Shown here piece by piece: positions 15,334-19,400 of a stretch of 64,000 nt of DNA. The notes beneath the pieces are model-generated. The model did not search any database. It saw only the letters and a list, made by a program, of their open reading frames with translations, and had not been told where the DNA came from. Both the position numbers and the translations under genes were made by a program. The stretch comes from Escherichia coli O157:H7 (GTDB lineage: Bacteria > Pseudomonadota > Gammaproteobacteria > Enterobacterales > Enterobacteriaceae), in assembly GCF_013167455.1 (NCBI RefSeq), contig NZ_CP038328.1; one strand, 5' to 3'. Position 1 is the first letter of the stretch. The number at the start of each line of letters is the position of its first letter.

Positions 15334-15715
15334 GACGGAATGTAAGAACGAAAATTTATTCCGAGCCGCTACGGAAGATGAAAAACGCAAGGTTGTTGAA
15401 AGCGTTGTGTTTTTTTATGGTAGTGCCGTCAGCAGGAATGTTGTCCAGGGCGAAAAGCTTCTTCCTCGTTTCGCCCTGCCTTTCTTAAAAATTCCGTAAT
15501 GCAAAGTCTGAAGCCATCGCCTGTTGAGCAATGAAAGAGATCTGATTGTAAGAGAGTAAATACTCAACTATGATAGAGACGAAAATAAGAACACATGTTC
15601 TCATCTTCCAGGATGCAGCAGACTGAAGAAATTCAGACATCCCGCAACCTGCGATTATCGCAAGGTCAAGGCAAAGTCCGGTAATGGCGTTCTGAATACC
15701 AGAGATAATTCTCTG

Positions 15716-15750
15716 GCGAAACCCACCTTAAGGTGGGTTTTGTTATTTTG
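15716..15750 (+). terminator. hairpin plus T-run between convergent thiH and htrC, possibly bidirectional
   Basis: AAACCCACC-ttaa-GGTGGGTTT followed by TGTTATTTT, read from sequence. Confidence 0.55.
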
Positions 15751-15767
15751 AGGGCTGAGGAAGCTGC

Positions 15768-16211
15768 TTATTTCTCAATAAGTTTTAGGCAATGGTGAAA
15801 AATTTCACTGAAAGCCCTGAACACAACAAAGTAAAATGCCTTATCTCCTCCGTCTAAGTCCACCTCAATCACGGCATAGCTACCATACCCGGCATGAATA
15901 ACGTTGCTTTCTGGCAGCGCCAAAATAGTTCTTTTTAAGTGTGTGCGCGCTAAGTTATAACGGTGCTGGCAGAAGGGACGAGATTCTTTAGGCGCGTGGT
16001 ACATTAACGATAGTTTTTCTTCGTTCGTCTGATGTTCATAATCTTTTGTGAAGCAGTGAAGAGAGTAGGTAACCCAAAAGCGATACTCTAAAGGCTCCTT
16101 GTCCTCATGATGCTGAACGTAGATAACCTGATGAGCATCAAGAAACGATAAATCACGAACGTCGCCATCCGGATGTTTAAAAGGTCGCCACTTCTCCACT
16201 TCCTGTTTCAT
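15768..16211 (-). CDS. htrC: HtrC/YjaZ-like protein, 147 aa as read here (see finding on frame structure)
   Basis: ORF track; AAGGA Shine-Dalgarno 6 nt upstream of the ATG; K-12 position between thiH and rpoC; protein identity from synteny, not from remembered sequence. Confidence 0.6.
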   Translation of the reverse strand: MKQEVEKWRPFKHPDGDVRDLSFLDAHQVIYVQHHEDKEPLEYRFWVTYSLHCFTKDYEHQTNEEKLSLMYHAPKESRPFCQHRYNLARTHLKRTILALPESNVIHAGYGSYAVIEVDLDGGDKAFYFVVFRAFSEIFHHCLKLIEK

Positions 16212-16373
16212 TCTCGTTCCTTAAGAAAGCTACACAGGAATAGTATCGAATCCTTGCCGAGTTTGACTCAATTAGTTCAGTCAGTTTCAGGATATTAGTC
16301 ATCTCTACATTGATTATGAGTATTCAGAAATTCCTTAAATATTCTGACAAATGCTCTTTCCCTAAACTCCCCC

Positions 16374-16400
16374 CATAAAAAAACCCGCCGAAGCGGGTTT
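16374..16400 (-). terminator. rho-independent terminator after rpoC
   Basis: Minus-strand GCCCGCTTCGGCGGG hairpin followed by a T7 run, immediately 3' of the rpoC stop. Confidence 0.8.
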
Positions 16401-16423
16401 TTACGTTATTTGCGGATTAACGA

Positions 16424-19400
16424 TTACTCGTTATCAGAACCGCCCAGACCTGCGTTCAGCAGTTCTGCCAGGCTGGCAGATGCGTCTTCTGCAGTCACCT
16501 GCGGTGCAGCCGGAGCTTCACCCGCAGCACGGCGACGCATACGATCCTGGTGGTACGCGTAACCGGTACCTGCCGGGATCAGACGACCCACGATAACGTT
16601 CTCTTTCAGGCCGCGCAGTTCGTCGCGTTTGCCCGCAACGGCTGCTTCGGTCAGCACGCGAGTGGTCTCCTGGAACGATGCCGCGGAGATGAAGGACTCG
16701 GTTGCCAGAGACGCTTTGGTGATACCCAGCAGATCGCGGGAGTAAGTTGCACCCACTTTGCCGTTCGCTTCCAGTTCGCGGTTTGCGATCTTGACGCGAG
16801 AGTATTCAACCTGTTCGCCTTCCAGGAAGTCGGAGCTGCCCGCGTTAACGATGGTAGCTTTACGCAGCATCTGACGAACGATAACTTCGATGTGTTTATC
16901 GTTAATCTTAACGCCCTGCAGACGGTATACGTCCTGTACTTCGTTAACGATGTAACGAGTCACAGCATGAACACCACGCAGACGCAGAATGTCGTGCGGC
17001 GCTTCCGGACCGTCGGAAATTACGTCACCACGTTCTACACGTTCACCTTCGAACACGTTGAGCTGACGCCATTTCGGAATCATCTCTTCGTACGGATCGC
17101 TACCGTCTACCGGGGTGATAACCAGACGACGTTTACCTTTGGTTTCTTTACCGAAGGAAACGATACCGCTGATTTCAGCCAGGATTGCCGGCTCTTTCGG
17201 ACGACGTGCTTCGAACAGGTCCGCAACGCGTGGCAGACCACCGGTGATGTCCTTGGTACCGCCGGATTCCTGCGGAATACGCGCCAGGGTGTCACCAGAG
17301 CTGATCTGTACGCCATCTTCCAGCTGAACAATCGCTTTACCCGGCAGGAAGTACTGCGCAGGCATATCGGTACCTGGGATCAGAACGTCGTTACCCTGAG
17401 CATCAACGATTTTCAGTGCCGGACGCAGATCTTTACCACCTGCGGTACGTTCTGCGGAATCCAGAACCACCAGCGAAGACAGACCGGTCAGTTCGTCGGT
17501 CTGACGAGTAATGGTCTGGCCGTCGATCATGTCAGTAAAGCGTACAAAACCGCTTACTTCGGTGATAACCGGCATGGTGTGCGGGTCCCAGTTTGCAACG
17601 GTTTCGCCGCCAGCAACCTGTTCGCCATCGCCTTTTGCCAGTACCGCACCGTAAGGTACTTTGTAGCTTTCTTTGGTACGACCGAATTCGTCGATCAGTT
17701 TCAGTTCGGTGTTACGGGAAGTGATAACCAGTTTACCGCTGGAGTTCACAACCGACTTCACGTTGCTGAGCTTGATGCTACCTTTGTTTTTCACCTGGAT
17801 GCTGGATTCAGCAGCCGCACGAGATGCCGCACCACCGATGTGGAACGTACGCATGGTCAGCTGTGTACCCGGTTCACCGATGGACTGTGCCGCGATAACA
17901 CCGATTGCTTCACCCTTGTTGATGATGTGGCCACGCGCCAGGTCACGACCGTAGCAGTGCGCACATACACCAAAGTCGGTGTCACAAGATACAACAGAAC
18001 GTACTTTAACCGCGTCGACAGAGTTCTCTTCCAGCAGGTCACACCACTGTTCGTGCAGCAGCGTGTTGCGCGGAACGAGGATATCAGCAGTACCCGGCTT
18101 CAGAACGTCTTCAGCAGTTACACGACCCAATACGCGATCGCGCAGCGGCTCTTTAACGTCACCACCCTCGATAACCGGAGTCATCATGATACCTTCATGG
18201 GTACCACAATCGTCTTCGGTAACCACCAGGTCCTGCGCCACGTCAACCAGACGACGAGTCAGGTAACCGGAGTTCGCAGTTTTCAGTGCGGTATCCGCCA
18301 GACCTTTACGAGCACCGTGGGTGGAGATGAAGTACTGGAGTACGTTCAGACCTTCACGGAAGTTCGCGGTGATTGGCGTTTCGATGATGGAGCCATCCGG
18401 CTTCGCCATCAGACCACGCATACCAGCAAGCTGACGAATCTGTGCCGCAGAACCACGCGCACCGGAGTCGGCCATCATGTAGATGCTGTTGAAGGAAACC
18501 TGCTTCTCTTCCTGACCGTCACGGTTAATAACGGTTTCAGTTTGCAGGTTATCCATCATCGCTTTGGATACACGATCGTTCGCCGCAGCCCAGATATCGA
18601 TAACTTTGTTGTAGCGTTCGCCCGCAGTTACCAGACCAGACTGGAACTGCTCCTGAATTTCAGCAACTTCTGCTTCTGCCTCGGAGATGATTTCGTGTTT
18701 CTTCTCCGGGATGACCATGTCATCGATACCAACAGATGCACCAGAACGCGCTGCATATGCAAAGCCGGTGTACATGATCTGGTCCGCAAAAATAACGGTC
18801 GGTTTCAGACCGAGAATGCGGTAGCAGGTGTTCAGCATTTTGGAGATTGCTTTTTTACCCAGCGCCTGGTTGACGATGGAGTAAGGCAGACCTTTCGGTA
18901 CAATCATCCACAGAATGGCACGGCCAACAGTCGTGTCTTTCAGGCTGGTTTTCGCTACTAATTCACCGTTAGCATCTTTTTCATACTCGGTGATACGCAC
19001 TTTAACGCGCGCATGCAGAGAAGCCAGACCAGAGCGATACAGACGTTCTGCTTCTTTCGGGCCAGTCAGCACCATGCCTTCGCCTTTGGCGTTAACACAG
19101 TCACGGGTCATGTAGTACAGACCCAGTACAACGTCCTGAGACGGAACGATGATTGGTTCGCCGTTCGCCGGGGACAGGATGTTGTTGGTAGACATCATCA
19201 GCGCACGCGCTTCCAGCTGGGCTTCCAGCGTCAGCGGTACGTGAACAGCCATCTGGTCACCATCGAAGTCGGCGTTATATGCCGCACAAACCAGCGGGTG
19301 CAGCTGGATAGCTTTACCTTCGATCAGTACCGGTTCAAATGCCTGGATACCCAGACGGTGCAGAGTCGGTGCACGGTTCAGCAGTACCGGGTGTTCGCGG

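What the first reader, a model, noticed from the sequence alone, without database searches (positions are those of the whole stretch)
15768..16310. htrC region: 147-aa ORF preceded by an overlapping 41-codon ORF in another frame
The minus-strand ORF at 15768..16211 (MKQEVEKW...) has an AAGGA Shine-Dalgarno and an in-frame stop 3 codons upstream of its ATG, so it cannot be longer at the 5' end in this sequence. In a different frame, a 41-codon ORF (MTNILKLTELIESNSARIRYYSCVAFLRNENETGSGEVATF, from 16302) runs into and overlaps its start. I recall K-12 HtrC/YjaZ as about 179 aa, roughly 30 aa longer than this ORF. Either a 1-2 nt indel has split the gene here, or my recalled length is wrong and the upstream ORF is fortuitous or a small leader peptide.
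Basis: partly seen in the sequence, partly recalled or inferred. Interest (0 to 1): 0.25.

Follow-up and report, generated by a model that had tools for sequence, protein, structure and literature searches.

The report
Truncated O157 allele of yjaZ/htrC
This is the known E. coli O157:H7 version of the poorly understood gene yjaZ (htrC), shortened at its tail end by an old 71-base deletion, and the small upstream reading frame is most likely a chance feature, so the finding is ordinary.

Summary
There is a 147-codon minus-strand ORF at 15768-16211 with an AAGGA ribosome-binding site and a TAA stop just upstream. A 41-codon out-of-frame ORF (16177-16302) overlaps its start.

K-12 YjaZ/HtrC is indeed 179 aa, but it starts at the same MKQEVEKW methionine. 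The leader differs from K-12 by one base.

The missing 32 residues are at the C-terminus. A 71-bp deletion (junction at 15808-15812, between imperfect TCAGnGAAA repeats) shifts the frame after residue 134. This adds 13 foreign residues and an early stop. It removes the family's most conserved motif (FREKKKLRLHVTSAYP…).

The junction occurs in 308 of 5426 complete E. coli genomes, all O157:H7 or O55:H7. A further 3421 carry the intact region, and about 1690 lack the whole 0.9-kb yjaZ-sroH island.

The upstream ORF is most likely fortuitous:
- It also exists in K-12, where it is 46 codons.
- It has no properly spaced Shine-Dalgarno sequence.
- It has no homologue outside Escherichia rpoC-htrC leaders.
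- Its start is ATG→CTG in one divergent contig and deleted in one isolate.
- It shows 11 nonsynonymous to 3 synonymous changes.

RefSeq already annotates the allele as "protein HtrC". Interest is low.

The parts
15768..16211 (-). yjaZ/htrC, O157:H7/O55:H7 allele. It is 147 codons plus a stop: residues 1-134 are native and residues 135-147 are frameshifted.
   Evidence: ORF list. The region is 100% identical to O157:H7 genomes, where it is annotated 'protein HtrC', WP_000808338.1. NCBIfam NF007263 (YjaZ) matches residues 1-137 of the 179-position profile at 311 bits, below the 324-bit cut-off. The exact protein occurs on at least 1000 contigs.
15808..15812 (-). Junction of the 71-bp deletion relative to K-12, within TCAG microhomology. 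K-12 has TCAGGGAAA...(71 bp)...TCAGTGAAA.
   Evidence: Alignments with K-12, MS20675, E. albertii and E2586. A 45-nt probe across the junction hits 308 of 5426 genomes, all O157:H7 or O55:H7.
15768..15809 (-). Frameshifted tail SEIFHHCLKLIEK plus a premature TAA. It replaces the native REKKKLRLHVTSAYPISEKQKGKSVKFFTIAYNLLRNKQLPQPSK.
   Evidence: Translations and protein alignment.
16218..16223 (-). Shine-Dalgarno AAGGA (16218-16222) of yjaZ, overlapping the in-frame TAA (16221-16223).
   Evidence: Read directly from the sequence.
16177..16302 (-). 41-codon upstream ORF in another frame, overlapping the yjaZ start by 35 nt. Judged fortuitous.
16373..16402 (-). rpoC intrinsic terminator (AAAAACCCGCTTCGGCGGGTTTTTTT). 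It marks the left edge of the yjaZ-sroH island.
   Evidence: Terminator scan. Homology with E. coli C ends just after it.
15581..15741 (+). sroH small RNA, convergent with yjaZ. The two share the hairpin at about 15718-15742.
   Evidence: Rfam RF00372 at 201 bits against a gathering score of 80, E 4.7e-51. MG1655 annotation b4691. A promoter-like site lies at 15546-15574.
15491..16371 (.). About 0.9-kb island of 42% G+C carrying yjaZ and sroH. It is present in about two thirds of E. coli genomes and absent from the rest.
   Evidence: Alignment with E. coli C. Genome counts. G+C of 0.42 against 0.52 for the window.

Best explanation
The region is the O55:H7/O157:H7-lineage allele of yjaZ (formerly htrC), lying between rpoC and sroH/thiH. 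Its 5' end, ribosome-binding site and start codon are the same as in K-12.

It is 32 aa shorter because an ancestral 71-bp deletion shifts the frame after codon 134. The deletion lies between two imperfect 9-bp direct repeats (TCAGGGAAA and TCAGTGAAA), which is typical of slippage or illegitimate recombination. It appends 13 unrelated residues and stops 26 nt before the normal stop.

The deletion removes the most conserved part of the YjaZ family. In the AlphaFold model that part includes two core beta-strands and the C-terminal helix. The product is therefore most likely inactive, and this step is inferred rather than shown. The gene would then be a decaying, dispensable gene.

The 41-codon upstream ORF is a chance open frame in the A+T-rich leader. 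It is neither a lost N-terminus nor a conserved leader peptide.
For: - **Same start codon and near-identical leader as K-12.** The leader has one substitution and no indel.
- **71-bp gap at alignment columns 613-683, flanked by TCAGnGAAA**.
- **Polarity is a deletion, not an insertion.** K-12, MS20675, E. albertii, the E. fergusonii plasmid copy and homologues as far as cyanobacteria all encode the deleted segment. All are about 180 aa and align from residue 1.
- **The junction is lineage-specific.** It is in 308 of 5426 genomes: 294 identical (all named strains listed are O157:H7) and 14 with one mismatch (those listed are O55:H7). The intact region is in 3421 genomes.
- **The deleted part is structurally core.** The AF2 model has pLDDT 87, and residues 135-179 cover strands 139-150 and 158-160 and helix 161-169.
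- **The truncated protein falls below the NCBIfam cut-off.** It scores 311 bits against 324.
- **There are independent lesions elsewhere in Escherichia.** These are a frameshift plus a 109-bp leader deletion (L010), Y31* (L013) and a 1-nt insertion (E2586). The whole island is absent from about 31% of genomes.
- **The upstream ORF behaves like non-coding sequence:**
  - Leader homology is absent from the E. fergusonii and P0008 loci, where similarity begins at the start codon.
  - Those loci have no comparable ORF.
  - A search of 5.8 billion proteins finds only 5 tiny clusters, all of which are variants of the Escherichia leader ORF itself.
  - It has 11 nonsynonymous to 3 synonymous changes, against 4:7 and 5:4 for intact yjaZ alleles.
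  - Its ATG is CTG in L013.
  - Its length is 41 or 46 codons, depending on a yjaZ G12K substitution.
  - The only purine-rich stretch, GTAGAG, abuts the ATG.
  - MG1655 has no annotation for it.
Against: - The upstream ORF is intact in every full-length Escherichia leader examined except L013 and L010. At 93-97% nucleotide identity this carries little weight.
- No expression data could be consulted, so translation of the upstream ORF is not excluded.
- Loss of function of the 147-aa product is inferred from conservation and a predicted model, not shown.
- The gene is still transcribed in EDL933 (qRT-PCR, bioRxiv 10.1101/480244).
Confidence: 0.92

Rival explanations
1. One reading: a 1-2 nt indel near 16180-16215 split a longer gene, so the 41-codon ORF encodes the lost N-terminus of HtrC.
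For: The ORF is 32 aa shorter than K-12 YjaZ, and an ORF in another frame runs into its start.
Against: - K-12 has the same start, the same upstream TAA and the same upstream ORF. No indel lies between 16150 and 16423.
- All family members align from residue 1 with no extension.
- The length deficit is fully explained by the 3' deletion.
Confidence: 0.01
2. The upstream ORF is a real translated leader peptide or small protein. Because its ribosomes would cover the yjaZ Shine-Dalgarno sequence and ATG, it would modulate yjaZ translation.
For: - It has an ATG start and is intact in O157, O55, K-12, MS20675, E. albertii and E2586.
- It overlaps the yjaZ initiation region by 35-50 nt.
- A genomic-SELEX RNA-polymerase peak maps between rpoC and yjaZ, so transcription may start upstream of it (PMC5493296).
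Against: - It has no correctly spaced Shine-Dalgarno sequence.
- The N:S ratio is 11:3.
- The start codon is lost in L013, and the start is deleted in L010.
- The stop position is variable.
- There are no homologues beyond the Escherichia leader, and other YjaZ loci lack an equivalent.
- The leader RNA has no unusual structure (z +0.55).
- It is not annotated in MG1655 and is absent from the supplements that could be searched.
- A candidate sigma-70-like promoter, read by eye and scoring below the scan's threshold (TTGAGT-18-GATACT), lies inside the ORF. It would start the mRNA downstream of the ORF's ATG.
Confidence: 0.06
3. The 147-aa product is a functional shortened variant that has been retained, not a decaying gene.
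For: - The allele is fixed in 308 O157:H7/O55:H7 genomes with the ORF intact.
- It is transcribed in EDL933.
- PGAP annotates it as a normal coding sequence.
Against: - It loses 45 native residues, including nearly invariant E136, K138, R141, H143, S146 and A147 and the C-terminal helix.
- The N:S ratio against K-12 is 7:5, higher than in intact alleles.
- The gene is repeatedly disrupted or absent elsewhere.
Confidence: 0.1

Closest known systems
E. coli K-12 yjaZ (b3989, synonym htrC; NP_418416.1, 179 aa)
   Same: - Same locus between rpoC and sroH/thiH.
- Same start codon, Shine-Dalgarno sequence and leader.
- 127 of the first 134 residues are identical.
   Different: A 71-bp deletion replaces the last 45 residues with 13 frameshifted ones. 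The heat-shock function once assigned to htrC has been retracted by EcoCyc (PMC11551758).
YjaZ family (Pfam PF27200; NCBIfam NF007263, 'stationary phase growth adaptation protein')
   Same: The N-terminal three quarters match the profile at E 2e-93. The family is widespread in Enterobacterales, Aeromonas and cyanobacteria and occurs on 559 plasmids.
   Different: It lacks the conserved C-terminal FREKKKLRLHVTSAYP...FFxIAxNLLxGKxLP block and scores below the curated cut-off.
Lineage-specific truncated genes (pseudogene-like alleles) of E. coli O157:H7
   Same: A short deletion between direct repeats causes a frameshift and a premature stop, and it is fixed in one clonal lineage.
   Different: None of substance. 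This is an ordinary example.

Membership tests
YjaZ/HtrC (NCBIfam NF007263 equivalog) | Whole-protein score at or above the curated cut-off of 324 bits | tested here: not met
   The window protein scores 311.4 bits and matches profile positions 1-137 of 179. K-12 YjaZ scores 430.1 bits. It is an orthologous but truncated allele.
YjaZ/HtrC (NCBIfam NF007263 equivalog) | Orthologous position rpoC - yjaZ - sroH - thiH | tested here: met
YjaZ/HtrC (NCBIfam NF007263 equivalog) | Conserved C-terminal block (E136, K138, R141, H143, S146, A147, F161, I164, L174, P175) | tested here: not met
   It is deleted or frameshifted in the window allele.
YjaZ/HtrC (NCBIfam NF007263 equivalog) | N-terminus at MKQEVEKW or its equivalent, with no extension | tested here: met
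   All 25 aligned family members begin within 8 residues of this start.
Translated leader peptide or small protein (the upstream ORF) | Shine-Dalgarno sequence 5-10 nt before the start | tested here: not met
   The upstream 25 nt are CTGAATACTCATAATCAATGTAGAG. Only GAG is present, and it abuts the ATG.
Translated leader peptide or small protein (the upstream ORF) | Conservation of the peptide, with purifying selection | tested here: not met
   The N:S ratio is 11:3. The ATG is CTG in L013. Length is 41 or 46 codons. There is no homologue outside Escherichia leaders.
Translated leader peptide or small protein (the upstream ORF) | Ribosome occupancy or an initiation peak at its start | not testable with these tools
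   No ribosome-profiling data are held. The supplements searched had no entry.
RelE/ParE-BECR toxin fold (considered for the YjaZ family) | Significant structural similarity to solved members | tested here: inconclusive
   [not shown]
RelE/ParE-BECR toxin fold (considered for the YjaZ family) | Adjacent cognate antitoxin gene | tested here: not met
   No partner gene lies in the island. There are no PADLOC hits.
sroH sRNA (Rfam RF00372) | Covariance-model score above the gathering threshold | tested here: met
   201.1 bits against 80, full length 1-161.

The most novel reading that the evidence does not exclude
YjaZ-family proteins may be solitary proteins carried by mobile elements whose C-terminal half adopts a RelE/BECR-like ribonuclease-toxin fold. 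In that case the conserved RLHVTSAY strand would be part of the active site. The O157/O55 deletion, together with the several independent lesions and losses in Escherichia, would then reflect repeated inactivation of a costly toxin-like gene rather than neutral decay.
Probability: 0.08. Interest if true: 0.4.

Novelty: already known. Interest (0 to 1): 0.07.

Why it matters
It matters little. The result corrects where the K-12/O157 length difference lies: a 3' 71-bp deletion, not a 5' split. It also provides a clean O55:H7/O157:H7 lineage marker and flags the O157 "protein HtrC" as a probable non-functional remnant. That is useful for annotation hygiene and for anyone using htrC as a "heat-shock" reporter in EDL933. 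It opens no new biological question. The function of the YjaZ family itself remains unknown.

Tried and rejected
- **N-terminal split hypothesis.** Rejected by alignment with K-12.
- **Function of YjaZ or the small ORFs from protein libraries.** The local Pfam-A copy gave no hit; PF27200 is apparently newer than that copy. PHROGs and PADLOC gave none. PDB sequence and profile searches gave none.
- **Literature on translation or a transcription start at the upstream ORF.**
  - A peptide string search found 0 papers.
  - The preprint on ribosome profiling with stalled initiation complexes (10.1101/511675) has no held supplements.
  - The PIRT-Seq supplements and those of the E. coli/Klebsiella transcription-start-site paper (PMC3415461) have no yjaZ entry.
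  - Two further id look-ups, for what I recalled as the original 1990 htrC paper and a 2015 transcription-start-site paper, found nothing held.
  - One search on 'sroH' alone was wasted, because it returned papers on 'self-rated oral health'.
- **RNA thermometer or structured leader.** Rejected: MFE -26.4 kcal/mol against a shuffle mean of -28.2, z +0.55.
- **Promoter scan.** It found no site above threshold on the minus strand upstream of yjaZ.

Full report
**Observation**

The window is E. coli O157:H7. The 1084-bp rpoC-thiH interval is 100% identical to O157:H7 chromosomes. On the minus strand, rpoC ends at 16424, followed by its terminator at about 16373-16402.

The 147-codon ORF lies at 15768-16211. 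It is preceded by AAGGA (16218-16222) and an in-frame TAA (16221-16223). A 41-codon ATG-ORF (16177-16302) lies in another frame and overlaps the first 35 nt of the larger ORF.

**Where the missing 32 residues are**

Over the 212 nt between rpoC and the start codon, O157 and K-12 differ by one substitution and no indel. The gene is therefore not split at its 5' end.

The alignment instead shows a single 71-bp gap in O157, at alignment columns 613-683. In K-12 this segment is bounded by TCAGGGAAA on the left and TCAGTGAAA on the right. In window coordinates the junction is at the TCAG at 15808-15811.

Because 71 is not a multiple of three, the frame shifts after F134. The product ends in SEIFHHCLKLIEK and stops at 15768-15770, which is 26 nt before the K-12 stop position at 15743-15745.

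**Polarity and distribution**

The 71-bp segment encodes REKKKLRLHVTSAYPISEKQKGK. That block and the following KFFxIAxNLLxGKxLPxP are the best-conserved part of the family, retained from Enterobacterales to Aeromonas and cyanobacteria. These proteins are all about 180 aa and align with K-12 YjaZ from residue 1. The O157 state is therefore a deletion.

Counts across the 5426 complete E. coli genomes are as follows.

| State | Genomes | Source |
|---|---|---|
| Deletion junction (45-nt probe that cannot match intact alleles) | 308: 294 identical (listed named strains all O157:H7), 14 with one mismatch (those listed are O55:H7) | |
| Intact C-terminal region | 3421 | |
| Whole island absent (e.g. 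E. coli C) | about 1690 | |

In genomes lacking the island, about 32 bp replace roughly 0.9 kb of 42% G+C DNA carrying yjaZ and sroH. This agrees with the loss of sroH in phylogroups B2 and D, E. coli C and some Shigella reported in PMC3318445.

**Consequence for the protein (inferred)**

An AlphaFold2 model of K-12 YjaZ built on a 25-sequence alignment is confident (pLDDT 87, pTM 0.84). Residues 135-179 contribute the end of strand 124-136, strands 139-150 and 158-160, and helix 161-169.

The truncated protein scores 311 bits against NCBIfam NF007263, below the 324-bit cut-off, while K-12 scores 430. PGAP accordingly names it only "protein HtrC", or "hypothetical protein" in O55:H7. I infer that the product is inactive or unstable. 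This is not shown, and the gene is still transcribed in EDL933.

Relaxed constraint on the locus is supported by several observations:

- An environmental isolate has a frameshift plus a 109-bp leader deletion.
- A divergent metagenomic contig carries Y31*.
- Escherichia sp. E2586 has a 1-nt insertion.
- Several truncated protein clusters appear in the database.
- The N:S ratio of O157 against K-12 is 7:5, compared with 4:7 and 5:4 for intact alleles.

**The upstream ORF**

It is not specific to O157. K-12, MS20675, E. albertii and E2586 all have it, but there it is 46 codons long. The O157 stop codon is a by-product of the GG to AA change that makes G12K in YjaZ.

The evidence against a coding role is as follows:

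- There is no Shine-Dalgarno sequence at a functional distance.
- YjaZ homologues at 70-78% identity in other genomic contexts share no leader similarity. Their homology starts at the start codon, and they have no equivalent ORF.
- A search of 5.8 billion proteins returns only five tiny clusters, all of which are variants of the Escherichia leader ORF itself.
- In the most divergent orthologous contig the ATG is CTG.
- Distinct codon changes in the non-overlapping 30 codons are 11 nonsynonymous to 3 synonymous, which is close to neutral expectation.
- The leader RNA is not unusually structured (z +0.55).
- MG1655 RefSeq annotates nothing there.
- ORFs of this size are common. The window has 155 of 41-99 codons, and 15 of 44 long ORFs have such an out-of-frame ORF across their first start codon.

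Translation cannot be excluded without ribosome-profiling data, which I could not obtain.

**What the gene is**

YjaZ has no assigned function, and EcoCyc retracted the original heat-shock designation (PMC11551758). The family is frequent on plasmids: 559 PLSDB records, about half of them conjugative. It sits in mobile contexts next to umuDC-like or higBA genes.

**Verdict**

This is an ordinary, already annotated lineage-specific truncation. The upstream ORF is best regarded as fortuitous.

Noticed in passing
window 15581-15741 (+): Full-length sroH sRNA (Rfam 201 bits), convergent with yjaZ. It shares a bidirectional hairpin at about 15718-15742, and a sigma-70-like promoter lies at 15546-15574.
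   Followed up: partly
window 15485-15640 (-): A 51-codon ORF (MSEFLQSAASWKMRTCVLIFVSIIVEYLLSYNQ...) with a hydrophobic stretch. Its first 60 nt are antisense to the 5' end of sroH, an arrangement reminiscent of type I toxin-antitoxin pairs. The 156 nt are identical in the window and the 5 other E. coli alleles compared, although yjaZ diverges by up to 3%. Homologues occur only in Escherichia and are rarely called. It has no convincing ribosome-binding site. Its significance is unknown.
   Followed up: partly
window about 15491-16371: The yjaZ-sroH segment is a presence/absence island of 42% G+C, against 52% for the window. It is absent from about 31% of complete E. coli genomes, such as E. 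coli C, where about 32 bp replace it. It is present in E. albertii and a cryptic Escherichia clade.
   Followed up: partly
L010, L013, L014 (orthologous loci): Three independent yjaZ lesions outside the O157 lineage: a frameshift plus a 109-bp leader deletion, Y31*, and a 1-nt insertion near codon 126.
   Followed up: yes
[not shown]
   Followed up: partly
window about 16212-16372 (rpoC-yjaZ spacer): A genomic-SELEX peak for a minor-sigma RNA polymerase holoenzyme (apparently RpoE, from a truncated section heading) is reported between rpoC and yjaZ in K-12 (PMC5493296). No promoter passed the sigma-70 scan here.
   Followed up: no
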